DNA of 43,714 nucleotides. It comes from Escherichia phage NTNC80A. Shown here piece by piece: positions 2,548-21,928 of this stretch. The position numbers and the translations under genes are program-made. The first letter of the stretch is position 1; every line of letters starts with the position of its first letter. The stretch lies in sequence record OP018999.1. One strand, given 5' to 3'. Under the pieces are notes generated by a model. It made no database searches and had not been told where the DNA came from. It worked only from the letters and a program-made list of their open reading frames with translations.

Positions 2548-2555
2548 ATTAACTG

Positions 2556-2652: not shown

Positions 2653-2676
2653 TAGGGTATTCTTTTGAGTACCCTA
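2653..2676 (+). promoter_or_regulatory. stem-loop in the Ocr 5' leader, RNase III-site-like
   Basis: tagggtattc-tttt-gagtacccta: 10-bp stem (one G-U) with UUUU loop, about 35 nt upstream of the Ocr start, positionally like T7 R0.3. Confidence 0.35.
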
Positions 2677-2711
2677 TAATGTAACCTAACTAACTAATGA
2701 GGATTAATAAC

Positions 2712-3068: not shown

Positions 3069-3174
3069 GGATGGAAAAGCAATACAATTTCCTCTTTTCT
3101 GATGGTGTAACCCTGAAGTGTTCCTTGCGATTTGCACAAATTCGGGAGGAAGTGCTAGGCACTACATATAAACT

Positions 3175-3198
3175 ATTTAGCTGACACTATAAGAGAAG
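3175..3198 (+). promoter_or_regulatory. off-consensus phage-type promoter-like sequence
   Basis: atttagCtgacactataAgagaag: two mismatches to the phage consensus, including A instead of G at +1; upstream of the 3265 gene. Confidence 0.3.
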
Positions 3199-3264
3199 AC
3201 TTAACAGGGCGTTACTTGTTAGCGCCCGATTAAGTTTATCTCAATGAAACAAATAGGTGACTAT

Positions 3265-4149
3265 ATGACTACTGAAAACATCCTCGTTTCTGTTCGTGAA
3301 GCTGCAACCGCTGAAATTAAGCAACACTTAGACAATATCGGCACTTCTTATCTCCGTGTTGGCGCTTGTCTTAATGAGCTACGCGGTGACTTTGAAGGTC
3401 AAAAAGACTTTTTGGCTTATGTAGAATCGGAGTTCGGCATCAAGAAAGCACAATGCTACAAGCTGATGAGCGTAGCCCGTGTCTTTGAAGGTGATGACCG
3501 TTTCAAAGGTGTGGCGATGCGTGTAATGCTGGCCCTTGTTCCTTTCGCTGATGAAAGTATCATCATGGAGAAGGCCGCAGAACTCGCCGCAGATGGCAAA
3601 TTGGACACTAACGCCGTAAACGCCCTGATTGAGCCTAAGAAAGAGCCAAAGGCCGAAACGGTACAATCTAAGGCTGAGGCGGTAAAACCGCAGGAGAACG
3701 TGACTGAGGCCGCAGAATCACAGGAAACGCAAGCGCCGCAGGTAGTTCCGCCAGTGAGTGAGCCGGAGGCTGACGAATCAGCACCGTGGGAAGAGGGAAG
3801 CAAGCCGGAAGCGCCAAAGGCCGCGCCACTGGACAACACGGCTAACACTGAGAACGCCGCCATGTCTGGCCTGCTGGCGCAGATTAAGTCACTGACTGAG
3901 CAATTACAGGCAGCTAACGACCGCATCGCCGCCCTAACCAGTGCACGCGAAAGCAAGAAAGCAGCCGCGCCTATGCTTCCACAGTTTAAATCTTCTTGCT
4001 TTTACGCTCGCTTAGGCTTGAGCGCGGAGGAGGCAACGAAGAAAACAGCAGTGAACAAGGCACGCCGTGAACTGGTTAAGCTGGGATACGGTGAAGGCCA
4101 TGAGGCATGGGCTTTAATATCTGAGGCAGTAGAAGAATTAACTAAGTAA
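3265..4149 (+). CDS. early hypothetical protein (294 aa): globular N-domain, acidic/Pro-rich linker, coiled-coil C-region
   Basis: ORF track 3244..4149; ATG 3265 has the better SD (GGTGA). Central segment KKEPKAETVQSKAEAVKPQENVTEAAESQETQAPQVVPPVSEPEADESAPWEEGSKPEAPK is low-complexity. No kinase motifs seen. Confidence 0.6.
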   Translation: MTTENILVSVREAATAEIKQHLDNIGTSYLRVGACLNELRGDFEGQKDFLAYVESEFGIKKAQCYKLMSVARVFEGDDRFKGVAMRVMLALVPFADESIIMEKAAELAADGKLDTNAVNALIEPKKEPKAETVQSKAEAVKPQENVTEAAESQETQAPQVVPPVSEPEADESAPWEEGSKPEAPKAAPLDNTANTENAAMSGLLAQIKSLTEQLQAANDRIAALTSARESKKAAAPMLPQFKSSCFYARLGLSAEEATKKTAVNKARRELVKLGYGEGHEAWALISEAVEELTK

Positions 4150-4212
4150 CCTTATCGGTGGCATCTTCTTAGGTGTCACCTATTAAGGTTTCTTTAACTA
4201 GGAGTACACAAG

Positions 4213-6840
4213 ATGCAAGATTTACACGCTATCCAGCTTCAACTAGAGGAAGAAATGTTTAACGGCGGTATTCGCCGCTTTGAAGCAGACCAACAGCGCC
4301 AAATTGCATCGGGTAATGAATCCGATACGGCTTGGAATCACCGCTTGTTGTCTGAGCTAATCGCGCCTATGGCTGAAGGTATTCAGGCTTACAAGGAAGC
4401 CTACGAAGGCAAGAAAGGACGCGCACCGCGTGCACTGGCTTTCATTAACTGCGTAGAGAACGAAGTGGCAGCATATATCACGATGAAAATCGTAATGGAT
4501 ATGCTTAACACTGATGTAACCTTGCAAGCCATAGCAATGAATGTAGCTGACCGCATCGAAGACCAAGTACGCTTCAGCAAGCTGGAAGGTCACGCCGCCA
4601 AATATTTTGAGAAAGTTAAGAAGTCACTCAAGGCAAGTAAGACTAAATCATATCGCCATGCGCACAATGTAGCTGTAGTGGCTGAGAAGTCAGTTGCCGA
4701 ACGTGACGCAGACTTCTCCCGCTGGGAAGCGTGGCCTAAGGATACCTTGCTACAAATCGGGATGACCTTGCTCGAAATACTGGAGAATAGTGTATTCTTC
4801 AACGGGCAGCCTGTTTTCCTACGCACCTTGCGTACTAATGGCGGCAAACACGGCGTTTACTACTTACAGACCAGTGAACACGTAGGCGAGTGGATAACTG
4901 CCTTCAAAGAGCACGTAGCGCAACTGAGTCCGGCCTATGCACCTTGCGTTATCCCTCCGCGTCCGTGGGTGTCACCTTTTAACGGCGGTTTTCACACTGA
5001 GAAAGTAGCAAGCCGCATCCGTCTGGTAAAAGGCAACCGTGAGCACGTCCGTAAGCTAACCAAAAAGCAAATGCCTACGGTCTATAAGGCTGTTAATGCT
5101 TTACAGGCTACGAAATGGCAGGTTAACAAGGAAGTGTTACAGGTTGTGGAAGACGTAATACGGCTTGATTTGGGCTATGGTGTGCCTTCCTTTAAGCCAC
5201 TCATCGACCGTGAGAACAAGCCAGCTAACCCCGTGCCTGTTGAGTTCCAACATTTGCGCGGTCGTGAGTTGAAAGAAATGCTAACGCCGGAGCAGTGGCA
5301 AGCCTTCATCAACTGGAAGGGCGAATGCACCAAGCTATACACCGCCGAAACTAAGCGCGGCAGTAAGTCGGCAGCTACCGTTCGCATGGTTGGACAAGCC
5401 CGAAAATACAGCCAGTTTGACGCGATCTACTTCGTGTATGCACTGGACAGCCGAAGCCGCGTTTATGCGCAATCTAGCACGCTTTCCCCGCAGTCTAACG
5501 ACTTAGGCAAGGCATTGCTCCGTTTTACCGAAGGGCAGACTATAGACAGCGCTGAGGCGCTTAAGTGGTTTTTGGTGAACGGGGCTAATAACTGGGGTTG
5601 GGATAAGAAAACTTTTGACGTGCGCACTGCTAACGTGCTGGATGGAGAGTTTCAAGATATGTGCCGCGATATTGCAGCCGACCCGCTGACTTTCACTCAA
5701 TGGGTAAATGCTGATTCTCCTTATGGATTCCTTGCGTGGTGCTTCGAGTACGCTCGTTATTTAGATGCACTGGATGAAGGTACACAGGACCAATTCATGA
5801 CGCACCTACCAGTACACCAAGATGGTAGTTGTTCTGGTATCCAGCACTATAGTGCAATGCTACGTGATGAGGTAGGCGCGAAGGCGGTAAACCTTAAGCC
5901 TTCCGACTCGCCGCAAGATATTTATGGGGCGGTGGCGCAAGTAGTTATCCAGAAGAATTACGCTTACATGAATGCAGACGACGCAGAGACTTTTACGTCT
6001 GGAAGCGTAACACTTACAGGTGCAGAACTGCGTAGCATGGCGAGCGCATGGGATATGATAGGAATCACTCGCGGCTTAACCAAAAAGCCGGTAATGACCT
6101 TGCCTTACGGATCCACTCGCTTAACCTGCCGTGAGTCAGTGATTGATTATATCATTGATTTGGAAGAAAAAGAGGCGCAGAGAGCTATTGCAGAAGGGCG
6201 GACGGCTAATCCGGTGCACCCTTTTGATAATGACCGCAAAGACTACCTAACACCTGGTGCAGCTTACAACTATATGACTGCTTTAATTTGGCCTTCTATT
6301 TCTGAGGTTGTTAAAGCACCTATAGTGGCGATGAAGATGATTCGTCAGCTTGCACGTTTTGCAGCTAAAAGAAATGAAGGCTTAGAATATACCCTACCTA
6401 CTGGCTTCATCTTGCAACAAAAGATAATGGCTACCGATATGCTTCGTGTATCCACTTGCTTGATGGGTGAGATCAAGATGAGTCTACAGATTGAGACGGA
6501 TGTAGTTGATGAAACGGCAATGATGGGCGCTGCCGCTCCTAACTTTGTTCACGGGCACGATGCTAGTCACCTTATATTAACGGTATGTGACCTAGTTGAT
6601 AAAGGGATTACATCTATTGCGGTCATCCATGACTCTTTCGGGACTCATGCAGGCCGCACCGCAGACCTGCGGGATAGCTTAAGGGCAGAAATGGTTAAGA
6701 TGTATCAAGGCCGTAATGCTTTACAGCAACTGCTGGATGAGCATGAAGAGCGTTGGCTAGTAGATACTGGCATCCAAGTGCCAGAGCAAGGGGAGTTTAA
6801 TCTTGAAGAGATATTAGTTTCTGACTATTGCTTTGCATAA
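4213..6840 (+). CDS. single-subunit DNA-directed RNA polymerase, SP6-type
   Basis: 875 aa; start [24 protein letters not shown] and motifs [33 protein letters not shown] match SP6 RNAP as recalled; end ...YCFA. Its specificity fits the promoters in this window. Confidence 0.97.
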
Positions 6841-7296: not shown

Positions 7297-9285
7297 ATGG
7301 CTATTATTCAGAATGTACCGTGTCCTGCTTGCCAAAAGAACGGACATGATATTACTGGCAATCATTTAATGATCTTTGACGATGGGGCAGGATACTGTAA
7401 CCGTGGTCACTTCCATGATAACGGTAAACCTTATTACCACAAGCCGGAAGGTGGCATCGAGATAACCGAGTTACCTATTACTGGCAATATCAAATATACA
7501 CCTTCTCAATTCAAAGAAATGGAGAAGGAAGGGAAGATAAGCGACCCTAAGTTGCGCGCCATCGCACTTGGTGGTATGCGTATGAAAGACCGTTGGGAGG
7601 TTATGAATGAGCAAGAAAGGGCAGACCAAGAAGCCGAGTGGAAACTCGATGTTGAATGGTTCCTCACGCTTAAGCGTAAGAACCTTGTATCCCGTCACAT
7701 TCGAGGCGACATCGCTGCAATGTATGATGTGCGCGTCGGACATGATGAAGAAGGCCGAGTCAACCGTCACTACTATCCTAGATACGAAAAGGGTGTGCTC
7801 GTGGGAGCAAAGTGCCGGACGCTGCCGAAGGATTTTAAGTTCGGTCACTTAGGTAAACTCTTTGGTATGCAAGACCTTTTCGGGATGAACACTTTGTCTC
7901 ACGTGTTAGACAAGGGAAGACGAAAGGATTGCTTGCTTATTGTAGGTGGTGAACTGGATGCACTAGCAGCGCAGCAGATGCTCCTTGATTCTGCCAAGGG
8001 TACTAAGTGGGAAGGTCAGCCATACCACGTGTGGTCTGTCAACAAAGGTGAATCTTGCCTTGAAGAGATAGTGCAAAACCGTGAACACATCGCCCAATTC
8101 AAGAAGATTATCTGGGGCTTCGATGGTGATGAGGTAGGACAGAAGCAGAACCAGCAAGCGGCTCGCCTGTTTCCCGGCAAATCCTATATCCTTGAGTACC
8201 CTTCTGGTTGCAAAGATGCCAACAAGGCATTGATGGCTGGCAAGGCTAAAGAATTTGTGGATGCTTGGTTTAATGCAAAGTCATCTGATGAAGTCTTTGG
8301 TAGCCAGATTAAATCTATCGCATCTCAAAGGGATAAGCTCAAGGCTGCACGTCCAGAACAAGGGCTGTCATGGCCTTGGCCTAAGCTAAACAAGGTAACG
8401 CTAGGTATTCGTAAGAACCAACTTATCATTGTAGGCGCAGGCTCTGGTGTAGGTAAGACTGAGTTCCTTCGTGAAGTAGTTAAGCACCTCATTGAAGAAC
8501 ACGGTGAATCTGTAGGCATCATTTCTACAGAAGACCCGATGGTCAAGGTGTCCCGTGCTTTTATCGGTAAGTGGATTGATAAGCGTATTGAGTTACCGCC
8601 AACCAACGACCCGAAAGAAGATGGATACCGTGAGGTGTTCGACTACACCGAGGAAGAAGCTAACGCCGCCATTGATTATGTAGCTGATACAGGTAAGCTG
8701 TTTGTAGCTGACCTAGAGGGTGACTATTCGATGGAAAAGGTAGAGCAAACTTGCCTAGAGTTTGAGGCTATGGGCATTTCTAATATCATCATTGATAACT
8801 TAACGGGGATTAAATTAGATGAGCGTGCTTTTGGTGGGAAGGTTGGTGCACTTGATGAATGCGTCAAGCGGATTGGTACTATCAAAGACCGACACCCGGT
8901 TACTATATTCCTTGTATCACACCTTACACGTCCTCCGGCAAACCGTACCCAACACGAAGAAGGTGGCGAGGTTATCCTTTCTGACTTCCGAGGCTCAGGC
9001 GCTATCGGATTCTGGGCATCTTACGCCTTGGGGATTGAGCGTAACACAAGAGCTGAAACGCTTGACGAAAGGACTACCACGTACATCTCATGTGTCAAAG
9101 ACCGCGACCAAGGTATCTACACTGGAACCAAGGTCATGCTTAAGGGTGACATTCAAACCGGACGTTTAATGGAACCACAAGCCCGTACTAAGTCATTTGA
9201 TACAGGTGAAGCAAGGCAACAAGAAGTGCCGGATTTACCGGACACTATAGAAGAGACAACCTTTGACGATGAACAGGAGTTTTAA
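7297..9285 (+). CDS. DNA primase/helicase (T7 gp4-like)
   Basis: N-terminal zinc ribbon CPACQKNG...CNRGH, Walker A GAGSGVGKT, acidic C-terminus ending DDEQEF. Confidence 0.95.
   Translation: MAIIQNVPCPACQKNGHDITGNHLMIFDDGAGYCNRGHFHDNGKPYYHKPEGGIEITELPITGNIKYTPSQFKEMEKEGKISDPKLRAIALGGMRMKDRWEVMNEQERADQEAEWKLDVEWFLTLKRKNLVSRHIRGDIAAMYDVRVGHDEEGRVNRHYYPRYEKGVLVGAKCRTLPKDFKFGHLGKLFGMQDLFGMNTLSHVLDKGRRKDCLLIVGGELDALAAQQMLLDSAKGTKWEGQPYHVWSVNKGESCLEEIVQNREHIAQFKKIIWGFDGDEVGQKQNQQAARLFPGKSYILEYPSGCKDANKALMAGKAKEFVDAWFNAKSSDEVFGSQIKSIASQRDKLKAARPEQGLSWPWPKLNKVTLGIRKNQLIIVGAGSGVGKTEFLREVVKHLIEEHGESVGIISTEDPMVKVSRAFIGKWIDKRIELPPTNDPKEDGYREVFDYTEEEANAAIDYVADTGKLFVADLEGDYSMEKVEQTCLEFEAMGISNIIIDNLTGIKLDERAFGGKVGALDECVKRIGTIKDRHPVTIFLVSHLTRPPANRTQHEEGGEVILSDFRGSGAIGFWASYALGIERNTRAETLDERTTTYISCVKDRDQGIYTGTKVMLKGDIQTGRLMEPQARTKSFDTGEARQQEVPDLPDTIEETTFDDEQEF
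9233..9255 (+). promoter_or_regulatory. phage RNAP promoter embedded in the 3' end of the helicase gene
   Basis: atttaccggacactatagaagag; +1 G at 9250; simultaneously encodes DLPDTIEE. Confidence 0.6.
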
Positions 9286-10945: not shown

Positions 10946-11050
10946 ATGAATAACTACGACTCTGATTGGGATTTTGAAGATTCAATGCAACCTGAACCAG
11001 AAACTCCTGACTACATGTTTGATACCGAGGCAATGTATGAAGACTATTGA
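10946..11050 (+). CDS. acidic micro-protein (34 aa), hypothetical
   Basis: SD TGGAGGA then ATG 10946; MNNYDSDWDFEDSMQPEPETPDYMFDTEAMYEDY; its 3' end overlaps the polymerase start. Confidence 0.35.
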   Translation: MNNYDSDWDFEDSMQPEPETPDYMFDTEAMYEDY

Positions 11051-13547
11051 TTGGAAGAAGGAAGCAGAAGGCCGTATCCTAGTGATGGATGCGGAAGCAA
11101 AAGGTTTGCTTGATGCTATCCGCTACGGTCATCGTGAAGATGTGCATATCATTTGCTGCATGGACTTGCTTACTACCGAGGAGTTCCTCTTCTTTGACCC
11201 GTATGAGATGCGTGACCCTGAAGCAAGGGAGCGCCTGAAGGAATGGGAAGGCCATCAAGATGGTGACTTGGTTGATGGTGTTAACTTTCTGAAACACTGT
11301 GAAGCCATCGTGTCACAGAACTTCCTAGGGTATGACGGCCTTCTCTTTGAGAAAGCATTCCCTAATATCTGGAAAGGCTTTAACTACACAGAGAAGCGCG
11401 GCAAGGGCAGGCTCCGTGCCGACCTGTGTCCTGTGCGAGTCATGGACACGCTGGTGATGAGCCGCCTGTTAAACCCCGATAGACGCCTCCCTCCGCAAGC
11501 ATACGCCAAAGGTATGGGTAACGTCGCCCCTCACTCAATTGAGGCGCACGGCATCCGTATAGGCCGCTATAAACCGGAGAACGAGGACTGGTCTAAACTG
11601 ACCGACCACATGGTTCACCGTGTACGTGAGGACGTGGCGATTGGTCGTGACCTGTTCCTCTGGCTCTTTAACGGGGAATGGATGGAGCACAAACGCCGTG
11701 GCGTGAATAAACGTACAGGCCTAGGTATTGAGACAGCCTTCCACATGGAATCCATTGTGGCGCTGGAGATGAGCCGACAAGCCGAGCGTGGGTTCCGTCT
11801 GGATATTGACAAGGCTTTGGCCCGATGCGAAGAACTGGACGCTAAGATTGACGAGACAGTCGCAGCGTTCCGCCCACACATGCCTATGCGTATCAAGTCT
11901 AAACCTTTTAAACCGGAAGAAAAGAATGAAGTATGCCAACGCGCAAATGAGTATGGAGCTAGTAACAATATACCTACTGTCCTTGACCCCTCACACTTTC
12001 TTCATGCCGAGAGACGAGGGGATCGCAAGACAGTATGGAGTGTCACTACTAAGTCTGGTGATTGGTCGGCTAGTGTCAAGAAAGACTTTCCTCACCTTAG
12101 AGGAAACCGTAATGACACGCCAAGCATCAAGTGGGTTGGCGCTTACTCGCCTGTTACTTTCGAAGAGATTCCCTTGGGTAACAGGGATACAGTTAAGCAA
12201 GTGCTCTATGATTATGGATGGAAAGGTGTTGAGTTTAACGATACCGAGCAAGCGCATCTCGATGAGTATGGCGTATTACCCAAGCCTTGGAGTGGCAAGA
12301 TAAATGAGAAGTCCCTTACTTTATGGCAGGAAAGAGCCGCACGTGAAGGTAAAACAGTCCCTGATTGGTGCTTGGGTATCGCTGCATGGTACATACTCGT
12401 ATCCCGTCGTGGTCAGATCCTCAACCGTGGTGACGTTGAAGCCTTCAACGAGAAAGGGGCGTGGCCCTCGCAGGCTGGTGTACGAAAGTGTCGCGGCCTT
12501 GTACCTGTAGCCTTTAACAAGGAGCTAGGAATCAATGCGCAGCAATACTATGAAAGGTATGGGTGTTGGCCTACGTCTGACAAGGATGACGGAGAGTGGC
12601 GTGTGCCAGGCAATGCTGTTACTATTGGCACTAATACGTTCCGTATGCGTCATCGTAACATCGTTAATATTCCTTCCCGTGGGTTGTATCCTTTACGTGA
12701 TTTATTCATAGCTAGCAAAGGCAAAATGATACTTGGGTGTGATGGTGCAGGTCTTGAGCTTCGCATCTTAGCCCATTTCATGGGTGACCCTGAGTATATT
12801 GATATTGTCTTGAATGGTGATATTCACTCGCACAACCAAGCGAAGGCTGGATTGCCCCTGCGTGACACTGCGAAAACATTTATCTACGCTTTTCTCTATG
12901 GGTCTGGCATACCAAATCTTGCAGCTGTATGTGGCATGACTGAAGCACAGATGAAAGAATGTGTCGCTCGCTTTGAAGTAGAGCTACCACATTTAGCTAA
13001 ACTTAAAGAAGGAGTAGAATCTGCTGCTTCAACCTTTGGATACATGCACGCTGTAGATGGTCGATGGGGACGTGTACGCGTTAGCAATGGTGAGATTAAG
13101 ATTCACACTTGTCTTAACGTACTGCTCCAGATGACTGGCTCCCTCACTATGAAGTACTCAAAGGTGAAGGCTCTCGCTACTATGCGAAAAGAAGGTGTTG
13201 CTCTTGATGAGAATGGAAACCCTGCTATGCTTGTAGACTATCACGATGAATGGCAGATGGAGGTTCCTGAAGATGAAGTCTTAGAGATTCGCTACTCCAT
13301 CCCTTCTTCTGAATGGAAAGAAGAAGAGAAACGCCAGTATCGTGACAGCGAAGGACGCATATGGTCTGCGCCTAAAATAGTTGAAGGCAACCCTAAAGAG
13401 GATGAAGAGGTAACAGTACGTCGCAGGTATCATCGTGCTGGTGAAATCCTAGCTGAATCTATTACGTGGGCTGGAGAATATCTCAAGCTACGCATCCGAA
13501 TGGATGGCGAATATATGCTTGGATATTCATGGGCTGAAACGCACTGA
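11037..13547 (+). CDS. DNA polymerase, family A (T7 gp5-like)
   Basis: 836 aa from ATG 11037 (SD GAGG); motifs GCDGAGLELRILAHFM, GDIHSHNQ, KTFIYAFLYGSG align with T7 DNA polymerase as recalled. Confidence 0.95.
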   Translation: MKTIDWKKEAEGRILVMDAEAKGLLDAIRYGHREDVHIICCMDLLTTEEFLFFDPYEMRDPEARERLKEWEGHQDGDLVDGVNFLKHCEAIVSQNFLGYDGLLFEKAFPNIWKGFNYTEKRGKGRLRADLCPVRVMDTLVMSRLLNPDRRLPPQAYAKGMGNVAPHSIEAHGIRIGRYKPENEDWSKLTDHMVHRVREDVAIGRDLFLWLFNGEWMEHKRRGVNKRTGLGIETAFHMESIVALEMSRQAERGFRLDIDKALARCEELDAKIDETVAAFRPHMPMRIKSKPFKPEEKNEVCQRANEYGASNNIPTVLDPSHFLHAERRGDRKTVWSVTTKSGDWSASVKKDFPHLRGNRNDTPSIKWVGAYSPVTFEEIPLGNRDTVKQVLYDYGWKGVEFNDTEQAHLDEYGVLPKPWSGKINEKSLTLWQERAAREGKTVPDWCLGIAAWYILVSRRGQILNRGDVEAFNEKGAWPSQAGVRKCRGLVPVAFNKELGINAQQYYERYGCWPTSDKDDGEWRVPGNAVTIGTNTFRMRHRNIVNIPSRGLYPLRDLFIASKGKMILGCDGAGLELRILAHFMGDPEYIDIVLNGDIHSHNQAKAGLPLRDTAKTFIYAFLYGSGIPNLAAVCGMTEAQMKECVARFEVELPHLAKLKEGVESAASTFGYMHAVDGRWGRVRVSNGEIKIHTCLNVLLQMTGSLTMKYSKVKALATMRKEGVALDENGNPAMLVDYHDEWQMEVPEDEVLEIRYSIPSSEWKEEEKRQYRDSEGRIWSAPKIVEGNPKEDEEVTVRRRYHRAGEILAESITWAGEYLKLRIRMDGEYMLGYSWAETH

Positions 13548-13565
13548 TTAACATAGGAGAAACAT

Positions 13566-13994
13566 ATGGCTAATCGTAAAGAGATGGAGATTGTTAAGTT
13601 AGATAATGGCTGTCTCGTGCAGACTAGCCATAAGCTCAATCCTGATGGTTACTTTCGTAAGCGTATATGGCATGAAGGTCGCTTGCAGCACATGATGTAC
13701 CATCGTTACATGTGGATTCAAAAGCATGGTGAGATACCAAAAGGGTATGAAGTTGACCACAAATGTAAGAATCGTGCATGTTTCAATGTTGACCATTTAC
13801 AATTACTTAAGTCGTCTGAGCATAGAACTAAAGACAATACAGGCCGTCATGGTGATAAGAAGCAAGCTGCATATTTAATTTGGAAGCAGCATTGCGGAGC
13901 TATTACAGGAGCTGCCCTAGCTGAATTGGTTGGTGTATCATTCAGTGCTACGTGTAAGTGGATTAGAGGCTGGAGGACTAATGAGCACCAGTGA
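13566..13994 (+). CDS. HNH homing endonuclease
   Basis: VDHKCKNRACFNVDHLQL HNH motif; free-standing gene right after the polymerase; SD AGGAGA. Confidence 0.85.
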   Translation: MANRKEMEIVKLDNGCLVQTSHKLNPDGYFRKRIWHEGRLQHMMYHRYMWIQKHGEIPKGYEVDHKCKNRACFNVDHLQLLKSSEHRTKDNTGRHGDKKQAAYLIWKQHCGAITGAALAELVGVSFSATCKWIRGWRTNEHQ

Positions 13995-14165
13995 CATTGT
14001 TTGCCTAGTCTTTACCTTCTTTCTTGTATTTCTTATGCTTGCTTGTTATGGGAGTATGCAAGTAGATATACCTGACGAAGAGGAAGGTTACGATTGAGTT
14101 ATACTCAAGGTCACTTACGAGTGGCCTTTATGGATAACTTATCCCTACTTATTTTGTCTAACATG

Positions 14166-14188
14166 ATTTACTGGACACTATAGAAGGA
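14166..14188 (+). promoter_or_regulatory. phage RNAP promoter (consensus)
   Basis: atttactggacactatagaagg; +1 G at 14183. Confidence 0.75.
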
Positions 14189-14250
14189 AAGCCTAGGTAG
14201 TATAGGTTTATAAGGTAGTATAGGTAATTAAGTAAATATAGGAGATATAA
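14189..14250. other. AT-rich leader with direct repeats, candidate secondary origin
   Basis: aggtagtataggt occurs twice in tandem (cctAGGTAGTATAGGTttataAGGTAGTATAGGTaatt) directly after a promoter. Confidence 0.3.
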
Positions 14251-14252
14251 AT

Positions 14253-14630
14253 ATGTCTATGGTAACTACTCTGGTATTCGTGGCTCAATACTTTCGTGGC
14301 TTATCTAATAAGTTTAAGCAGAAGGCTATCTTTGCAATTCAAGAGCGTATCAACAAAATTGAAGAAGAACAAGTAGATGTAGAAGAACATCGTAGTTCTC
14401 AAATGATTGACTGCCACAATCGCTACTATACATCTCGTGATGACCTGAATGAACGTCAAGTCAAAGAGGTAGAAGAGATGATGGCACGTCACCAGCAAGA
14501 GCGGGACAATCTGGAAGCTACCTTCGAAGAGAACAAGGCATCAATTGCCCTTGTACATCAGGCTGCATCTGACAGTCTGAAGAAAGAGATTGTTATGCTG
14601 GAAATTGAACTTGATAACCTGACTAAGTAA
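14253..14630 (+). CDS. hypothetical protein (125 aa), coiled-coil-rich
   Basis: ORF track; SD AGGAGA; hydrophobic N-terminus then charged helical sequence. Confidence 0.6.
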   Translation: MSMVTTLVFVAQYFRGLSNKFKQKAIFAIQERINKIEEEQVDVEEHRSSQMIDCHNRYYTSRDDLNERQVKEVEEMMARHQQERDNLEATFEENKASIALVHQAASDSLKKEIVMLEIELDNLTK

Positions 14631-14636
14631 GGGGTT

Positions 14637-14870
14637 ATGATGGAAGAAGTAATTCAAGCTAGCAGTGTTCTTTTGTCTTTTAATGATGTGCCACCAGAGC
14701 ACCCAACTAGTGTAGTCTTGTTTGTTGAAGGTCAAAACTGCCAACAATTAAGTCTGTCACTTCGTGATACTCGCGTTAGTGTACATATGCAAGGTACCCA
14801 CGAGGGTGAATGTGTAAGCTACATTTACCCTCGAGACGCTATTGCACGCATTAAAGTAGTTCATAAATAA
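14637..14870 (+). CDS. hypothetical protein (77 aa)
   Basis: ORF track; starts 7 nt after the previous stop. Confidence 0.5.
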   Translation: MMEEVIQASSVLLSFNDVPPEHPTSVVLFVEGQNCQQLSLSLRDTRVSVHMQGTHEGECVSYIYPRDAIARIKVVHK

Positions 14871-14891
14871 TTAGGTGACACTATAGAACAA
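14869..14891 (+). promoter_or_regulatory. phage RNAP promoter (SP6-type)
   Basis: aattaggtgacactatagaaca; +1 G at 14886; followed by a ~150-nt leader containing hairpin atgtgca-tgt-tgcacat. Confidence 0.7.
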
Positions 14892-15037
14892 TAGGTCGAT
14901 TTAGTTCGGCCTATGATTGTAAAGTGTTGAACCGCCTATTGTGCATGTTGCACATCCCCATTCTCTAACTGGGGCTTTCTAGTGAGTACATGCGTGTGCT
15001 CAGTACAAAGCTAACAAACAACAGGAGGAATAAATTA

Positions 15038-15844
15038 ATGGCACGTAACTTTGACTTCGGCGCAGAAATTACTCAATCCACTGGTGGTGTATTTAAGAAC
15101 CCTGAAGTGGGCGACCATGAGGCAGTTATCTCTGGCATCATTCACGTTGGTTCCTTCCAAGACATCTTCAAGAAAGGTAACACCACCGAGGTGAAGAAGC
15201 CTGCTAACTTCGTTCTTGTTAAGGTAATCCTGATGGGTGACGATGACAAGAACGAGGATGGCTCTCGTATGGAACAGTGGATGGCTGTGCCGCTCAAGTC
15301 TGGTGACAAGGCAACGCTGACCAAGTTCCTGAATGCAGTTGACCCGAAAGAATTGCTTGGTGGCTTCGATGACTTCATCGGCGAGTGCATGACTGTTAGC
15401 ATGGTTGGTGATGATAAGGGTGGCAAGAACGAAGATGGCACTTTCAAGTATGTTAACTGGAAAGGCTTCGGCGGTATGCCTGATAAACTCAAGAAGCTGG
15501 TTCTGGCTCAGGTGGAAGAAGAAGGCTTAACCATGACAGGCCACATCACCTTCGACAAGCTGACCCGCGAAATCATCGACAGCATCCCTGCACATCTCGT
15601 TCGTCAGTACCTGCTGAACGAAACACCACGCGGTAAGAACCTGTCCGTTGCTGGCTCTCATGTTGAAGCCATCATCGCTGAGGCTCGCGCTGCCGATGCT
15701 GAGTGGAAGAAGGCCAAGAAGAAAGACAATGACGCAACTCCAGAAGACCGTAAGCCTCTGGACACAGGTGCCTCTGTCCCGCAGGAAGTACCGGAAGCCC
15801 CTAACGTAGCGGCACCGGAGATGGACGAAGACTCGGAATATTGA
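15038..15844 (+). CDS. hypothetical protein (268 aa) with acidic C-terminal tail; possible ssDNA-binding/replisome protein
   Basis: ATG 15038 with SD AGGAGGAA (ORF track 14990); own promoter; C-terminus PEMDEDSEY; N-terminus MARNFDFGAEIT. The SSB assignment is a guess from position and tail. Confidence 0.7.
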   Translation: MARNFDFGAEITQSTGGVFKNPEVGDHEAVISGIIHVGSFQDIFKKGNTTEVKKPANFVLVKVILMGDDDKNEDGSRMEQWMAVPLKSGDKATLTKFLNAVDPKELLGGFDDFIGECMTVSMVGDDKGGKNEDGTFKYVNWKGFGGMPDKLKKLVLAQVEEEGLTMTGHITFDKLTREIIDSIPAHLVRQYLLNETPRGKNLSVAGSHVEAIIAEARAADAEWKKAKKKDNDATPEDRKPLDTGASVPQEVPEAPNVAAPEMDEDSEY

Positions 15845-15851
15845 ATAAACC

Positions 15852-16298
15852 ATGACTTCCGATCAGATAAAAGAGAAGATACAGAATAATATTGTTGTAT
15901 CTGAAACTGGATGCTGGTTGTGGCAGAAGTCTATAGCTACTAATGGATATGGTAACATCTGCGTAGGTAAAGGAAGAAACAGAGCAGTTCACAGGGTTGC
16001 TTGTGAACTGTATCACGGAGTTCCACCTACGCGTATGGATGCCGTTCATTCTTGTGACAATAAGGCTTGTTGCAATCCAGAACACCTGTCTTGGGGAACA
16101 AGGAGTCGTAATGAAATAGAGGCTGTGAGAAGGCTAGGTAAGTCACATAAACTTAAACTACATGAAGCAGCATACATTAAGTTCTCCGGTTTACCTACTA
16201 AAGAATTAGTAGGTATGTTCTCTGTGAGTAAAGATTTAATTAACAGAATTAAGCGTGGTGTCTTATGGGCACACGTAACCAAGGGGGATTTAAGATGA
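15852..16298 (+). CDS. HNH homing endonuclease
   Basis: HSCDNKACCNPEHLSWGT HNH motif plus C-terminal helix-turn-helix-like region. Confidence 0.85.
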   Translation: MTSDQIKEKIQNNIVVSETGCWLWQKSIATNGYGNICVGKGRNRAVHRVACELYHGVPPTRMDAVHSCDNKACCNPEHLSWGTRSRNEIEAVRRLGKSHKLKLHEAAYIKFSGLPTKELVGMFSVSKDLINRIKRGVLWAHVTKGDLR

Positions 16299-16513
16299 AA
16301 GTACAAATTGTAACCCTGCACTGTAAGAAAGGCATTACAACCCTAGGCGGCACAACTTTTCACTCCTTCTCTGAAGGGGAGACATACGCCGACCTGCACT
16401 ACATCTGGCGCGATGGGCAGCACGTGGTGAACTACAGCGACCCCGCTACGGGGAAACGCCACGGCGTGTCGCTTCCGGCGCACGACATCGCTCAGGTGAA
16501 CACAGTTTTATAA
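16295..16513 (+). CDS. hypothetical protein (72 aa)
   Basis: ATG 16295 overlapping the HNH stop (ATGA); SD AAGGGGGA; MKVQIVTLHCKKG... Confidence 0.5.
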   Translation: MKVQIVTLHCKKGITTLGGTTFHSFSEGETYADLHYIWRDGQHVVNYSDPATGKRHGVSLPAHDIAQVNTVL

Positions 16514-16520
16514 AGTCTCA
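16505..16520. repeat. 16-bp perfect palindrome GTCTCACATGTGAGAC
   Basis: Exact copy, 15 nt upstream of the promoter at 16536. Confidence 0.8.
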
Positions 16521-16535
16521 CATGTGAGACAAATC

Positions 16536-16558
16536 GGTGTCCGGTATTTACTGGACAC
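16536..16558 (+). promoter_or_regulatory. phage RNAP promoter (consensus)
   Basis: atttactggacactatagaagag; +1 G at 16553. Confidence 0.75.
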
Positions 16559-16617
16559 TATAGAAGAGAAGAATTTTAATCGGCGATAATGCCACAACTA
16601 ACAAAGGAGAATTTAAT

Positions 16618-16983
16618 ATGTTCAAGATTGAAACTATCGTAAACCGTGTTGTTAAAGGTGCTGATCTGGTATCCGTTGAGTCTTTCGTTATCGTCGATGA
16701 AGCCAACAAACTGGTAGCTGGCACTAAGGCTTACGATACCCGTGAAGAGGCTCAGGCTAAGATTGACAGCATGGGTAACTTCGCTGCTGGTCTGGAGTTC
16801 GCTCGTGCTTGCTTCCCTGAGCAGGCTGACAAAGCTCAGATTGGCAAGGCTAACATCGTAGCTGAGTATCTGGATTGGATTGCCGCTGGTAAACCGGTGA
16901 AAGAAGCTAAGGCTGAAGAAGCTGAGGCTCCGGTAGAAGTAGCTGCACCGGAAGCTCCGGTAAGCGAAGAAGAAGAGTTTTGA
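16618..16983 (+). CDS. small acidic protein (121 aa) ending SEEEEF, hypothetical
   Basis: Consensus promoter, strong SD (AAAGGAGA) and downstream terminator suggest high expression; C-terminal acidic tail with terminal Phe. Confidence 0.75.
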   Translation: MFKIETIVNRVVKGADLVSVESFVIVDEANKLVAGTKAYDTREEAQAKIDSMGNFAAGLEFARACFPEQADKAQIGKANIVAEYLDWIAAGKPVKEAKAEEAEAPVEVAAPEAPVSEEEEF

Positions 16984-17042
16984 TAATAGCAGGTGTTGCC
17001 TCTGTTAGTCCTAGATGACTATCACGCTCACCTCATCTAATG

Positions 17043-17076
17043 CCCTGTCTGCCTTAGTGTAGGCAGGGTCTTTTGC
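17043..17076 (+). terminator. phage-type terminator hairpin
   Basis: ccctgtctgcc-ttagtg-taggcaggg then TCTTTTG; same architecture as the hairpin after the capsid gene. Confidence 0.65.
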
Positions 17077-17297
17077 GTAATAGTTATTGGAGAATGAATT
17101 ATGCCGACTATTGAAGAACGTTTGAAACTAGAGTACCACTACTTTTATGCACCTTTAAGAAAGACAGAAGTCACTGTCGTAAAAGTTAAGCTGGATGGTG
17201 ACCTCTTTCTTCAAAAGGTTAAAGAGACAAGAAGCCAGAACGAATCTCGTACTTTTGCATATGAGGTACTCTATTCTGTATTGAAGGAGTGGCCTAC

Positions 17298-18326
17298 ATG
17301 CGACCAAACTTCGACTTCGGAGCCACAGTATCGGAAGACAATAATCTCATCCTGTGGCCAACTGAAGGTAATCGAATCGCTTTAATAGATGCTGATATGT
17401 TACCCTACATCGTAGGTTATACAATCAGTGACATGACTTATGTACGAGCCACAACTCGTGTTAAGTCAGGACAAGTCCCATCAATCAAAGATACACCTGA
17501 GTGTAAGCAAGCGTGTGACCGTGTGAACTCCTTGCTTAACTCTTGGGTGTATGCAGCAGAGTGTGATGCAGCTAAGTTATTCATGACGAAATCAGAAGCT
17601 AACTTTCGTGTACGCCTAGCCTTCACCAAACCTTATAAGGGTCAACGTAAGACCGAGAAGCCCCCCTTCTTCTATGAATTGAGAGAGCATCTCTTAGAGG
17701 TTCATGGTGCAATCTTGGCAGATGGTGAGGAAGCTGATGACCTCATGAGCATTGCACAATGGGACAGCCACCGCCGCTTCCAGCAAGATACAGGTAACGA
17801 GTTCCCTATCGGTAGTCCAGAGCATAAAGCATTCTCTGATACTTGCATTGTTTCCTTGGATAAGGACTTGATGATTGTTCCCGGTTGGCATCTTCAGCCG
17901 GGTCAAGAGAAGAAATGGGTAGAGCCTATGGGTTGGCTTGAGTTACGCCGTAAGGCTAATGGTCAGGTCAAAGACCTAAAAGGTGCTGGCCTCATGTTCC
18001 ATTATGCACAGATGATTATCGGTGATGATATTGATAACTATGCTGGCATACCTGGACGTGGTGCTAAATATGCCTATGATCTTCTCAAGAGTTGTAAGAC
18101 AGAGAAAGAGTTGTACATGGCAGTGCTTGGTGCTTACAAGGCTAAGTTCGGACATGGACAAGTTAAGATTAAGAATTACCGAGGGGGTTATCGTATCGGC
18201 AAAGCCTTTGACTTGATGCTTGAATGTGGTCGCCTAGCTCACATGGCAAGGTTCAAAGGTGATATATGGCGAGCCGATAAGAATGAAATCTTATGGGGAG
18301 ATGATGGCGATGAGTGGATGCATTGA
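17298..18326 (+). CDS. 5'-3' exonuclease (T7 gp6-like)
   Basis: ATG 17298 with SD AAGGAG 8 nt upstream (ORF track GTG 17289); RIALIDADMLPYIVGY aligns with the T7 exonuclease N-terminal metal-binding region as recalled. Confidence 0.9.
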   Translation: MRPNFDFGATVSEDNNLILWPTEGNRIALIDADMLPYIVGYTISDMTYVRATTRVKSGQVPSIKDTPECKQACDRVNSLLNSWVYAAECDAAKLFMTKSEANFRVRLAFTKPYKGQRKTEKPPFFYELREHLLEVHGAILADGEEADDLMSIAQWDSHRRFQQDTGNEFPIGSPEHKAFSDTCIVSLDKDLMIVPGWHLQPGQEKKWVEPMGWLELRRKANGQVKDLKGAGLMFHYAQMIIGDDIDNYAGIPGRGAKYAYDLLKSCKTEKELYMAVLGAYKAKFGHGQVKIKNYRGGYRIGKAFDLMLECGRLAHMARFKGDIWRADKNEILWGDDGDEWMH

Positions 18327-18747
18327 CCACGGTTGTAAAGGTTTTGGCATAGGTTATGCCACGGCATATTACAAGGGTCGTGACGGTAAGAAGAAGTTCA
18401 CCACGAAACACCGAGTAGTTTACTGCAAGGTTAATGGTATTCATCCAGAAGATTTACCTAAAGACCTAGTAATACGCCATACCTGTGACAATGCACGTTG
18501 CATAAATCCAAATCACCTTGAGATAGGAACCCACGCCGACAACATGCGAGACATGGCAGAGCGAGGGCGCGCCTACAAGGGCGGTATGCCCGGTGAGAAG
18601 AATGGGAGATGTGTCCTCTCCGATGAGCAAGTCTTGGAAATCAAGAGGCTACGTGCCGAAGGTTATACCCTCAAACGCATAGCTGACTTGTATTCTGTAG
18701 GCACATCTCAAATCTCCCGTATTACCAGAGGAGAACAACGTGCGTAA
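18301..18747 (+). CDS. HNH homing endonuclease
   Basis: HTCDNARCINPNHLEIGT HNH motif and C-terminal HTH-like region; start overlaps the exonuclease 3' end. Confidence 0.85.
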   Translation: MMAMSGCIDHGCKGFGIGYATAYYKGRDGKKKFTTKHRVVYCKVNGIHPEDLPKDLVIRHTCDNARCINPNHLEIGTHADNMRDMAERGRAYKGGMPGEKNGRCVLSDEQVLEIKRLRAEGYTLKRIADLYSVGTSQISRITRGEQRA

Positions 18748-19150
18748 GATGAAGCAAACAGATCTCGCTATGGTTCGTGATGAACTATGCGAGGCGCAGA
18801 AGTGGAAATGCCCTATTTGTGGAGGGCATCTTAAAATGATCACCAAGGTTAACCGTGTCGTAGATCACGACCATAACACTGGTGTGGTGAGAGCCTGCCT
18901 TTGCAGAGGGTGCAATGGTGGTATCGGTAAGATTGAAGCATATGCGCAGTCCTACTGCAAGGCAGGTAATAATACACGTGAAGTGATTAAGGTGTTGCGT
19001 AATCTAGCAGATTATCTTGAACACCATCAAACACCTCGTACTGGTTGGATTTATCACAAGCACCAGACTGAGGTCGAGAAGCGCGAGGCTCGCAACCGCA
19101 AGGCTCGCTTAGCATATGCACGTAAGAAGAAGGAGGCAAATGGTGGCTAA
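18740..19150 (+). CDS. endonuclease VII-type resolvase
   Basis: CPICGG...DHDHNTGVVRACLCRGCN signature of the endonuclease VII family; GTG 18740 or ATG 18749. Confidence 0.8.
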   Translation: MRKMKQTDLAMVRDELCEAQKWKCPICGGHLKMITKVNRVVDHDHNTGVVRACLCRGCNGGIGKIEAYAQSYCKAGNNTREVIKVLRNLADYLEHHQTPRTGWIYHKHQTEVEKREARNRKARLAYARKKKEANGG

Positions 19151-21730: not shown

Positions 21731-21928
21731 ATGTCTTTTGATTCCATGAAGGCAACTCGTGCCGTTGAGGTGGCAGAGGCTATCTTCGAAACTTTATCCT
21801 GTGGCATGGAAGTGCCATATACTTTACTGGCTGATGCAGAAGAACTTGGTCTTTCTGTAGAAGCTATCCAAGAGAAGGTGGAAGAACTCTATGGTACAGA
21901 TGAAGAAGAAACCGACGATTTCATTTGA
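21731..21928 (+). CDS. small acidic protein (65 aa), hypothetical
   Basis: ORF track; SD AAGGAGGG upstream; ends EEETDDFI. Confidence 0.5.
   Translation: MSFDSMKATRAVEVAEAIFETLSCGMEVPYTLLADAEELGLSVEAIQEKVEELYGTDEEETDDFI

What the first reader, a model, noticed from the sequence alone, without database searches (positions are those of the whole stretch)
13566..18747. Three free-standing HNH homing endonucleases of one family spread through the replication module
Genes at 13566-13994, 15852-16298 and 18301-18747 share the H..CDN..C.NP.HL core and a C-terminal HTH-like region. They sit after the DNA polymerase, after the putative SSB and overlapping the exonuclease end. Three copies in about 5 kb is a high load of selfish elements and they mark likely recombination hot-spots.
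Basis: partly seen in the sequence, partly recalled or inferred. Interest (0 to 1): 0.45.

Follow-up and report, generated by a model that had tools for sequence, protein, structure and literature searches.

The report
Three homing endonuclease genes in phage
The replication genes of this SP6/K1E-like coliphage carry three separately acquired, intact selfish nuclease genes (I-HmuI-like HNH homing endonucleases) wedged between essential genes; this is a well-known kind of phage parasite, so the finding is correct but ordinary.

Summary
Confirmed and largely ordinary. The window is Escherichia phage NTNC80A, an SP6/K1E-like podophage. ORFs 13566-13994, 15852-16298 and 18301-18747 all pass Pfam HNH_3. 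Models of the first two have I-HmuI as best PDB match, over their full length. The three are only 22-29% identical, so they are three independent acquisitions, not one expanded family. Each is a precise intergenic insertion that is absent from K1E and most relatives. Each has orthologues at the same site in a few other phages, and decayed copies exist elsewhere. That is the sporadic pattern expected of homing endonuclease genes.

HNH-2 and HNH-3 sit on switches of nearest relative. HNH-3 plus the downstream endonuclease VII gene is about 95% identical to Klebsiella phage VR702, while both flanks come from other lineages.

HNH-1 belongs to the I-TslI / T3 gp5.3 clade, which is linked to the DNA polymerase motif C. 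All seven SP6-like genomes with a free-standing HNH-1 carry W, C or A after the catalytic HDE. Genomes without it mostly keep I or L.

Three copies is not exceptional: a metagenomic relative also has three. No cleavage or mobility was tested. The SSB label for gp16 is unverified.

The parts
13566..13994 (+). HNH-1: 142-aa free-standing HNH_3 endonuclease gene with a C-terminal HTH. It starts 18 nt after the DNA polymerase stop codon and has its own AGGAGA ribosome-binding site. It belongs to the I-TslI / T3 gp5.3 clade.
   Evidence: Pfam HNH_3, 61.5 bits. AF2 model pLDDT 89.4; best PDB match I-HmuI 1U3E, probability 0.99. 52% identical to the phage 13a intron-encoded HNH, 62% to the Edwardsiella phage intron-encoded HNH and 45% to T3 gp5.3. 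Orthologues of 68-87% sit right after the polymerase gene in L017-L022. dN/dS 0.22 against L017.
15852..16298 (+). HNH-2: 148-aa free-standing HNH_3 endonuclease gene with a C-terminal HTH, inserted exactly between the gp16 stop and the gp17 ribosome-binding site and start. Its TGA stop overlaps the gp17 ATG at 16295.
   Evidence: Pfam HNH_3, 43.4 bits. AF2 pLDDT 88.6; best PDB match I-HmuI, probability 1.00. Window 15843-16293 replaces about 10 bp of K1E. Orthologues of 62% and 56% lie at the same junction in L011-L013 and L016.
18301..18747 (+). HNH-3: 145-148-aa free-standing HNH_3 endonuclease gene with a C-terminal HTH (start 18301 or 18310). It lies between the exonuclease (gp20) and endonuclease VII (gp21), overlaps the exonuclease 3' end, and supplies the ribosome-binding site for the GTG start of endonuclease VII.
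   Evidence: Pfam HNH_3, 34.2 bits, plus HTH_7, HTH_23 and HTH_38 below threshold. 94.6% aa identity to Klebsiella phage VR702 and 75-78% to PDP21P3, PST_H2 and SE29, all at the same site. dN/dS 0.11 against VR702.
18740..19150 (+). Endonuclease VII gene (a core gene, probable Holliday-junction resolvase), co-inherited with HNH-3. The tract from about 18300 to 19080 is one block of VR702-like sequence.
   Evidence: Pfam Endonuclease_7, 55.5 bits. This block is 89-99% identical to VR702, whereas the exonuclease to its left is 93-99% K1E- or PDP21P3-like and the phosphoesterase to its right is 92-98% SE29-like. Five of six HNH-3+ genomes share the variant N-terminus MRKMKQ.
13224..13277 (+). DNA polymerase motif C region: HDE at 13242-13250, followed by Trp codon 13251-13253 in place of the usual Ile. 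This is the inferred HNH-1 target region, present here as a variant allele that may be cleavage-resistant.
   Evidence: All seven SP6-like genomes with a free-standing HNH-1 have W, C or A after HDE. Eight HNH-1-less genomes have I or L. Intron-bearing relatives are split exactly at H|DE and keep V or I. Introns of phages PhiI and W31 lie at Pol I site 881 (PMC3428280).
12600..13547 (+). 3' part of the polymerase gene, carrying a divergent allele. Identity to K1E-type genes falls from about 88% to unalignable towards the 3' end, and the allele is 12 codons shorter.
   Evidence: The last 115 aa are 95-97% identical to Vectrevirus PDP21P3, PDP21P6 and T147P9, 64-66% to Erwinia, Pantoea and Pectobacterium phages, and below 60% to the rest.
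13981..14097 (+). Small gp13.5-like ORF (38 aa) that overlaps the HNH-1 3' end by 14 nt. Together with HNH-1 it forms the 547-bp block (13548-14094) that is absent from PDP21P3 and PDP21P6.
   Evidence: PHROG 15860, E 1.1e-23. Junction alignment. blastn boundaries.

Best explanation
The three ORFs are independently acquired, intact, free-standing homing endonuclease genes of the I-HmuI-like HNH_3 type: a His-Me finger nuclease joined to a C-terminal helix-turn-helix.

Shown:
- Each is a precise intergenic insertion in the replication module.
- Each is co-transcribed with its neighbours from the phage promoters at 10096, 14871 and 16548.
- Each 3' end either overlaps the start of the next gene (HNH-1, HNH-2) or carries its ribosome-binding site (HNH-2, HNH-3), so neighbouring essential genes are not disturbed.

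Inferred mechanism: during mixed infection with a relative that lacks the gene, the enzyme nicks or cuts that genome at or beside the empty site. Recombinational repair then uses the endonuclease-carrying genome as template. This copies the endonuclease gene together with a variable stretch of flanking DNA. The result is spread of the element and mosaic boundaries at its position.

Inferred targets:
- HNH-1: the motif C (HDE) coding region of the DNA polymerase gene, as implied for its relatives I-TslI and T3 gp5.3. The substitution after HDE (Ile to Trp here) may protect the carrier genome.
- HNH-2: the gp16/gp17 junction.
- HNH-3: the exonuclease/endonuclease VII junction or the 5' end of the endonuclease VII gene.
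For: Family and fold:
- HNH_3 is above threshold for all three.
- The candidate catalytic and zinc-ligand positions H, C, N, C, N, H are invariant among the three and in their orthologue alignments.
- The best PDB structural match is I-HmuI, over the full length.

Sporadic distribution at fixed sites:
- K1E, ULINTec7, KpnP_HY and others have empty sites.
- Orthologues occupy the same sites in scattered lineages.
- Decayed copies exist. The SE29 HNH-3 is frameshifted. VR702 has HNH-2-like fragments in three frames. The L020 HNH-1 is split and the L024 copy is truncated.

Selection: dN/dS is 0.11-0.22 for the closest orthologue pairs.

Mosaic structure:
- HNH-3 plus endonuclease VII is a VR702-like block between K1E-like and SE29-like flanks.
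- The flanks of HNH-2 switch from VR702/KpnP_HY-like (gp16, 85-92%) to K1E-like (gp17-18, 94-99%).

Target inference for HNH-1:
- Its relatives of 62-71% identity sit inside an intervening sequence that splits the polymerase exactly at H|DE. Rfam group I intron RF00028 matches full-length at E 3.8e-6, 31.8 bits, below its gathering score of 50.
- The residue after HDE is altered in 7 of 7 carriers of a free-standing HNH-1.

Literature:
- Free-standing endonucleases whose target site corresponds to an intron-insertion site, and co-conversion of flanking markers (PMC3984707).
- PhiI and W31 introns at Pol I site 881 (PMC3428280).
- I-TslI listed as an intron-encoded nicking enzyme (PMC8845596).
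- Nuclease genes at boundaries of genetic exchange between phages (PMC10055350).
Against: - No enzymatic or genetic test was possible. Intact ORFs and low dN/dS show constraint, not present-day homing.
- Mosaic junctions in these phages are frequent, about a dozen switches of nearest relative in 9.3 kb, and often fall at gene boundaries. Coincidence with the HNH genes is therefore suggestive, not proof.
- For HNH-1, relative L017 is collinear at about 90% across polymerase, HNH-1 and downstream sequence. No breakpoint is visible against that lineage.
- The variant polymerase allele also occurs in three genomes without HNH-1: PDP21P3, PDP21P6 and T147P9.
- T3, which carries the free-standing gp5.3, keeps HDEIQ. 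Target alteration is therefore not a general requirement in this clade.
- The genomes compared are phylogenetically related, so the 7-of-7 association represents perhaps 2-3 independent events.
Confidence: 0.85

Rival explanations
1. The genes are domesticated HNH nucleases that serve the phage itself, for example in host DNA degradation, replication-fork processing or packaging, rather than selfish mobile genes.
For: The ORFs are intact, catalytic residues are conserved and selection is purifying. They are co-transcribed with replication genes. HK97-type HNH proteins are a precedent for domestication (discussed in PMC10055350).
Against: All three are absent from viable close relatives such as K1E, K1-5-like phages and ULINTec7. 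Orthologues are frameshifted or truncated in SE29, VR702, L020 and L024. None lies next to the terminase gene.
Confidence: 0.07
2. The genes are inactive relics of past invasions. They no longer cut anything and are simply carried along.
For: The homing cycle predicts decay after fixation, and decayed copies are seen in relatives. HNH-2 has no obvious Shine-Dalgarno sequence.
Against: All three are full length with every conserved His, Asn and Cys position intact. dN/dS is 0.11-0.22. The HNH-3 block is about 95% identical to a Klebsiella phage while its flanks are about 75-84%, which implies recent transfer.
Confidence: 0.15
3. The three genes are paralogues produced by duplication of one element inside this genome, which is the literal reading of 'one family spread through the module'.
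For: They share the HNH_3 plus HTH architecture and the same core motif.
Against: They are only 22-29% identical to each other. Each has much closer orthologues (56-95%) in other phages at the same site.
Confidence: 0.02

Closest known systems
I-HmuI (Bacillus phage SPO1 intron-encoded HNH nicking endonuclease, PDB 1U3E)
   Same: It has an HNH_3 catalytic core followed by a helical linker and a C-terminal helix-turn-helix. It is the best structural match for the HNH-1 and HNH-2 models over their full length, with probability 0.99-1.00.
   Different: Sequence identity is only 17-21%. I-HmuI is encoded inside a group I intron of a polymerase gene, whereas the three genes here are free-standing. 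Whether they nick or make double-strand breaks is not known.
I-TslI (intron-encoded, phages PhiI and W31; a homologue lies in the split gene 5 of phage 13a) and F-TslI, the T3 gene 5.3 product (Bonocora & Shub 2009, known to me only through secondary citations PMC3984707, PMC3428280 and PMC8845596)
   Same: HNH-1 is 52% identical to the HNH gene lying inside the two-part gene 5 of phage 13a and 45% identical to T3 gp5.3. Like T3 gene 5.3, it lies immediately downstream of the DNA polymerase gene. Its closer relatives (62-71%) lie in an intron-like insertion at H|DE of motif C.
   Different: The host polymerase is the SP6/K1E type, not the T7 type. HNH-1 keeps the C-terminal HTH that the 101-aa T3 gp5.3 lacks. 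Carriers here have a changed residue after HDE, whereas T3 keeps HDEIQ. The cleavage site has not been determined.
[quoted passage not shown]
   Same: They are intergenic, lie next to essential replication genes, are sporadically distributed, and coincide with mosaic boundaries and co-converted flanks.
   Different: The phage family is different (Autographiviridae, Molineuxvirinae). Mob proteins combine HNH_3 with a zinc finger (PMC10055350), not an HTH.

Membership tests
HNH_3 / I-HmuI-like His-Me finger endonucleases | Pfam PF13392 domain above its gathering score | tested here: met
   61.5, 43.4 and 34.2 bits against a cut-off of 24.8
HNH_3 / I-HmuI-like His-Me finger endonucleases | Conserved His, Asn and Cys positions of the beta-beta-alpha-metal core | tested here: met
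   H65, C67, N69, C72, N74 and H77 (HNH-1 numbering) are invariant in the three proteins. H65, C67, C72 and H77 are invariant, and N69 and N74 at least 90% conserved, in the 36 HNH-1 orthologues; the corresponding positions are conserved in the HNH-2 alignment. Assignment to catalytic roles is by analogy, not tested.
HNH_3 / I-HmuI-like His-Me finger endonucleases | I-HmuI-like fold with a C-terminal HTH DNA-binding domain | tested here: met
   AF2 models have pLDDT 89. The top Foldseek PDB hit is 1U3E with probability 0.99-1.00, and the C-terminal helices match HTH regulators. HNH-3 was not modelled; it has only sub-threshold Pfam HTH hits.
Free-standing homing endonuclease genes | Presence or absence polymorphism at a defined site among close relatives, with precise boundaries | tested here: met
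Free-standing homing endonuclease genes | Site-specific cleavage or nicking of the allele that lacks the gene | not testable with these tools
   Only indirect evidence is available: variant alleles linked to the gene.
Free-standing homing endonuclease genes | Super-Mendelian inheritance with co-conversion of flanks in mixed infection | not testable with these tools
   Indirect evidence only: the HNH-3 plus endonuclease VII block is about 95% VR702-like between flanks of other ancestry.
I-TslI / F-TslI clade (linked to polymerase motif C) | Sequence homology to the HNH gene inside the split gene 5 of phage 13a and to T3 gp5.3 | tested here: met
   HNH-1 only: 52% identity (E 5e-48) and 45% identity (E 4e-27). 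HNH-2 and HNH-3 match only weakly (E from 1e-4 to 1e-7).
I-TslI / F-TslI clade (linked to polymerase motif C) | Cleavage within the motif C coding region of the polymerase gene | not testable with these tools
   Inferred from the intron position H|DE in relatives and from the altered residue after HDE in carriers.
Intron-encoded homing endonucleases | The ORF lies inside a self-splicing intron that interrupts a host gene | tested here: not met
   The neighbouring genes of all three are uninterrupted ORFs. There are no Rfam hits in the window at gathering thresholds.
Terminase-associated HNH (HK97 gp74 type) | Conserved position next to the terminase gene or packaging site in all relatives | tested here: not met
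   All three lie in the replication module and are absent from most relatives.

The most novel reading that the evidence does not exclude
The free-standing I-TslI-like endonuclease HNH-1 targets the motif C coding sequence of the SP6-type DNA polymerase gene. Carriage of the gene has then repeatedly selected replacement of the conserved hydrophobic residue next to the catalytic HDE (Ile or Leu to Trp, Cys or Ala), along with a diverged polymerase 3' end. On this reading a selfish nuclease is reshaping the flank of the active site of an essential polymerase. Relatives that carry the endonuclease inside an intron keep the canonical residue because the intron itself disrupts the target.
Probability: 0.35. 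Interest if true: 0.5.

Novelty: new member of a known kind. Interest (0 to 1): 0.3.

Why it matters
For annotation, three 'hypothetical' ORFs of phage NTNC80A can be named as free-standing HNH homing endonuclease genes, and their insertion sites are defined to the nucleotide.

For phage evolution, the locus is a compact example of endonuclease genes sitting on mosaic boundaries in the Molineuxvirinae replication module. At least seven intergenic or intragenic sites there are variably occupied across the relatives examined.

The most useful lead is the link between HNH-1 and polymerase motif C. The same endonuclease clade occurs inside an intron in some phages and free-standing after the polymerase gene in others, and the two arrangements show different states of the presumed target. 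This extends the 'collaborative homing' picture described for T7-like phages to SP6-like phages. It can be tested directly with simple cleavage assays.

For phage engineering and therapy cocktails, such genes predict marker exclusion and gene conversion when related phages co-infect.

Tried and rejected
- PDB sequence searches with the three proteins gave nothing meaningful. Fold search was needed instead.
- Rfam at gathering thresholds found no intron or other RNA family in the window or in the two intron-candidate loci. Only a permissive search recovered a sub-threshold group I intron match in the Edwardsiella phage.
- I could not obtain the primary paper on I-TslI and F-TslI. A text search for 'gene 5.3' found nothing. 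The exact cleavage positions are therefore unknown to me, and I rely on secondary citations.
- The simple idea that the diverged polymerase 3' end is a co-conversion tract unique to HNH-1 carriers was weakened. The same allele occurs in PDP21P3, PDP21P6 and T147P9 without HNH-1. Divergence from K1E also rises gradually from about 12600 rather than starting sharply at motif C.
- T7 gp5.3 turned out to be unrelated. It is a PD-(D/E)XK protein.
- The SSB identity of gp16 could not be supported.
- Scans for sigma-70 promoters and intrinsic terminators gave nothing relevant to the three genes.
- Duplication within the genome was rejected because pairwise identities are too low.


Full report
**What the window is.** The 43,714-bp window is a complete SP6/K1E-like podophage genome. 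A protein search returns a 100% match for one of its ORFs, named Escherichia phage NTNC80A, on a contig of exactly 43,714 bp. The replication module matches 129 phage records by megablast, mostly Vectrevirus and Zindervirus, at 80-92% identity, and no record is identical. Gene order follows K1E: primase-helicase, DNA polymerase (gp13), gp15, gp16, gp17, gp18, exonuclease (gp20), endonuclease VII (gp21), phosphoesterase (gp22).

**Observation.** ORFs 13566-13994 (HNH-1, 142 aa), 15852-16298 (HNH-2, 148 aa) and 18301-18747 (HNH-3, 148 aa) are real.
- All three pass the Pfam HNH_3 gathering score, and all hit PHROG HNH endonuclease families over most of their length.
- The motif H.C.N..C.N..HL occurs only in these three ORFs, and phmmer finds no fourth copy in the six frames.
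- AlphaFold2 models of HNH-1 and HNH-2 have mean pLDDT 89.4 and 88.6. [quoted passage not shown]
- In both models I-PpoI is the next match, and the last three helices match helix-turn-helix regulators.
- HNH-3 has sub-threshold HTH_7, HTH_23 and HTH_38 hits at residues 120-157 of the 162-aa ORF read from GTG 18259.
- Minor corrections: HNH-1 has CKN and NV rather than CDN and NP, and the HNH-3 start could be 18301 or 18310.

**Not one expanded family.** The three proteins are 22-23% identical globally. Local identity is 27-33%, with E values from 4e-6 to 2e-10. Each has far closer relatives in other phages. They are three separate lineages of one superfamily, acquired independently.

**Anatomy of the insertions.**
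- K1E lacks all three genes.
- *HNH-2.* K1E similarity stops at 15842, at the end of gp16, and resumes at 16294, at the gp17 start. About 451 bp therefore replace about 10 bp.
- Across 13 genomes with an empty gp16/gp17 site, the junction reads TATTAAGGAG..ATG or a close variant. In the three filled genomes the cassette sits between the gp16 stop and an AAGGAG- or AAGGGGGA-type ribosome-binding site carried in its own 3' end. The HNH-2 stop overlaps the gp17 start as ATGA.
- *HNH-3.* In K1E the endonuclease VII start overlaps the exonuclease end. In the window HNH-3 takes over that start region and its GGGGAG ribosome-binding site. Its 3' end (GAGGAGAACAACGTG) supplies the ribosome-binding site and GTG start for endonuclease VII.
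- *HNH-1.* It starts 18 nt after the polymerase stop and has its own AGGAGA. Its end overlaps the small gp13.5-like ORF. Relative to PDP21P3 and PDP21P6, the block 13548-14094 is a clean 547-bp insertion between two TGA stops.
- None of the three has its own phage promoter. SP6-type promoter matches lie at 10096, 14168, 14871, 16548 and 20147, so the genes ride on the neighbours' transcripts.

**Distribution among relatives.**
- *HNH-1.* Orthologues of 68-87% identity lie immediately after the polymerase gene in metagenomic SP6-like genomes L017, L018, L019, L021 and L022. L020 carries a split copy.
- *The post-polymerase site.* In the phage collection, T147P9 carries a different endonuclease ORF at this site (PHROG 3322, E 1.4e-27). 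PDP21P3 and PDP21P6 have the site empty.
- *HNH-2.* Orthologues of 62% and 56% occupy the same gp16/gp17 junction in L011-L013 and L016. Relatives of 47-50% occupy the gp18/exonuclease site instead in KpnP_HY and L014, and VR702 has decayed fragments there in three frames.
- *HNH-3.* Orthologues lie at the same exonuclease/endonuclease VII junction in VR702 (95%), PDP21P3 (78%), L014 (76%) and SE29 (75%, frameshifted). More distant ones (49-52%) sit in the same context in Lelliottia phage phD2B and Aeromonas phage PS.
- *Other variably filled sites.* These lie upstream of the polymerase gene (ULINTec7), between gp15 and gp16 (L014), and between endonuclease VII and the phosphoesterase (PDP21P6).
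- *Load.* L014 itself has three HNH_3 genes within about 4.2 kb, so a load of three is not exceptional.
- *Selection.* dN/dS is 0.22 for HNH-1 against L017 and 0.11 for HNH-3 against VR702, which indicates constraint on the proteins.
- Intact, decayed and empty states at fixed sites are the pattern expected of the homing cycle (PMC3984707).

**Mosaic boundaries.** I computed a sliding identity map against 14 relatives and a finer one around HNH-3.
- The exonuclease gene is 93-99% K1E-, ULINTec7- or PDP21P3-like.
- From about 18300 to 19080, covering HNH-3 and endonuclease VII, the sequence is 89-99% VR702-like and only 54-82% identical to the other HNH-3 carriers compared (SE29, PDP21P3).
- From about 19090 onwards the phosphoesterase gene is 92-98% SE29-like.
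- At HNH-2, the nearest relatives of gp16 are VR702, KpnP_HY and L014 (85-92%). gp17-gp18 are K1E-like at 94-99%, against about 71% for VR702.
- HNH-2 and HNH-3 therefore sit exactly on switches of ancestry, and endonuclease VII travelled with HNH-3.
- Five of six HNH-3+ genomes also share a variant endonuclease VII N-terminus, MRKMKQ... instead of MATKLK.... L014 is the exception.
- The region has about a dozen such switches in 9.3 kb, so the coincidence is supportive rather than conclusive.

**HNH-1 and polymerase motif C.**
- HNH-1 is 62% identical to an HNH gene of Edwardsiella phage DT115P1 and 71% identical to one of Klebsiella phage RCIP0053.
- In both phages that gene lies inside an intervening sequence splitting the polymerase at ...VANVH | DEVQ.E..., that is, within the catalytic HDE of motif C.
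- Rfam's group I intron model matches the Edwardsiella intervening sequence full-length at E 3.8e-6, with 31.8 bits, below the gathering score.
- Phage 13a has the same arrangement at WVH | DEIQ, and its HNH is 52% identical to HNH-1. The free-standing T3 gp5.3 is 45% identical.
- Introns of PhiI and W31 are reported at Pol I site 881 (PMC3428280). From my own knowledge, that is the His of the motif C HDE.
[quoted passage not shown] 2009 and Bonocora & Shub 2009 (PMC3984707). I could not read the primary paper.
- All seven SP6-like genomes with a free-standing HNH-1 have a non-canonical residue after HDE. It is W in the window, L017, L018 and L020, C in L019 and L022, and A in L021.
- Eight genomes without HNH-1 have I or L: K1E, SE29, ULINTec7, VR702, KpnP_HY, L014, L011 and L016.
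- Intron-bearing genomes keep V or I.
- The changes occur in two polymerase backgrounds, PEDEV-type and NADEV-type, so at least two or three independent events are implied.
- The window's polymerase 3' end is a diverged allele 12 codons shorter than the K1E type. It is shared at 95-97% with PDP21P3, PDP21P6 and T147P9, and its next nearest relatives are Erwinia, Pantoea and Pectobacterium phages at 64-66%.

**Caveats on that inference.**
- PDP21P3, PDP21P6 and T147P9 have the W allele but lack HNH-1.
- T3 keeps HDEIQ despite carrying gp5.3.
- Divergence from K1E rises gradually from about 12600 rather than starting at motif C.
- I therefore rate the target and immunity inference as plausible, at about 0.35-0.4, and not established.

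**Mechanism.**
- *Shown:* domain family, predicted fold, precise insertion sites, sporadic distribution, decay in relatives, purifying selection, and mosaic blocks.
- *Inferred:* the enzymes nick or cut genomes lacking them near the empty sites during co-infection, and repair copies the gene plus flanks. I-TslI is listed among nicking enzymes in PMC8845596. I-HmuI is also a nicking enzyme (PMC3428280).
- *Not tested:* activity, target sequences and mobility.

**Rivals.**
- A domesticated function is unlikely because viable close relatives lack the genes and some copies are decayed.
- Inactive relics cannot be excluded, but intact catalytic positions, low dN/dS and the recent VR702-like block argue against them.
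- Intragenomic duplication is rejected on the pairwise identities.

**Verdict.**
- These are three lineages, not one family in the narrow sense.
- The load is not unusual for this phage group.
- gp16 as an SSB is unverified.
- HNH-1 belongs specifically to the I-TslI / gp5.3 clade associated with polymerase genes.

This is a new set of members of a well-known kind. Interest is modest. The link between HNH-1 and motif C is the one lead worth an experiment.

Noticed in passing
window 14095-14141: A conserved hairpin, GTTATACTCAAGGTCACTTACGAGTGGCCTTTATGGA (stem AAGGTCACT/AGTGGCCTT with a UACG loop), follows the stop of gp13.5 here and the polymerase stop in PDP21P3 and PDP21P6. It is 94-100% identical in five relatives (SE29, PDP21P3, PDP21P6, T147P9, L014) whose surrounding sequence is more divergent or not collinear. 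It lies just upstream of the promoter-like site at 14168 and could be a terminator or an RNase III site.
   Followed up: partly
window 2674-42916 (13 sites; + strand at 3177, 6934, 9235, 10096, 14168, 14871, 16548, 20147, 25207, 32198, 40575, 42901): SP6-type promoter-like sequences (TTAGGTGACACTATAG or TTACTGGACACTATAG) occur 13 times, against 0.37 expected by chance. They define the transcription units that contain the HNH genes.
   Followed up: partly
window 9259-9285, 15818-15844, 16960-16983, 21905-21928: Several replication-module proteins end in acidic tails, three of them finishing with an aromatic residue: primase-helicase ...DDEQEF, gp16 ...EDSEY, gp18 ...SEEEEF. The ORF at 21731-21928 ends ...EEETDDFI. 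From my own knowledge, this resembles the C-terminal tails of T7 gp4 and gp2.5 that dock on the polymerase. It is the only support for calling gp16 an SSB.
   Followed up: no
window 10974-11037: The mechanical polymerase ORF starts at TTG 10974 (857 aa). Relatives' polymerase genes align from about 11037 and encode 836-aa products in T147P9, L017 and L020. The real start is probably ATG 11037 (MKTIDWKKEAEG...).
   Followed up: partly
L005 (Klebsiella phage RCIP0053) 1785-5879: The DNA polymerase appears to be split into at least four pieces (matches at 1824-3404, 3625-3861, 4537-4899 and 5547-5876). The intervening ORFs include a minus-strand ORF (3532-3939), a weak endonuclease VII-like match (4185-4376) and the HNH-1 homologue. 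This suggests several introns or nested mobile elements in one gene.
   Followed up: no
L004 (VR702) 6301-6724; L002 (SE29) 8032-8356; L020 3855-4282: Relatives carry decayed endonuclease genes. VR702 has HNH-2-like fragments in three reading frames between gp18 and the exonuclease gene. SE29 has a frameshifted HNH-3. L020 has HNH-1 split into 51-aa and 93-aa ORFs.
   Followed up: partly
window 11050-13547: The polymerase gene is itself mosaic. The 5' part is SE29-like (93-97%), the middle is K1E-, ULINTec7- or T147P9-like (96-99%), and the 3' third is PDP21- or T147P9-like, with K1E identity decaying towards the 3' end.
   Followed up: partly
window 17042-17069: A terminator-like hairpin (GCCCTGTCTGCCTTAGTGTAGGCAGGGT followed by a T-rich stretch) lies between gp18 and the exonuclease region. 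The surrounding segment 17042-17115 is conserved at 91-92% in SE29/VR702/KpnP_HY-type relatives whose neighbouring sequence is much more divergent.
   Followed up: no
L026 (T7) 684-1040: T7 gene 5.3 is not an HNH gene. It matches Pfam PDDEXK_5 (E 1.1e-10). The slot after the polymerase gene in T7-like phages therefore holds unrelated nuclease families in different phages.
   Followed up: yes
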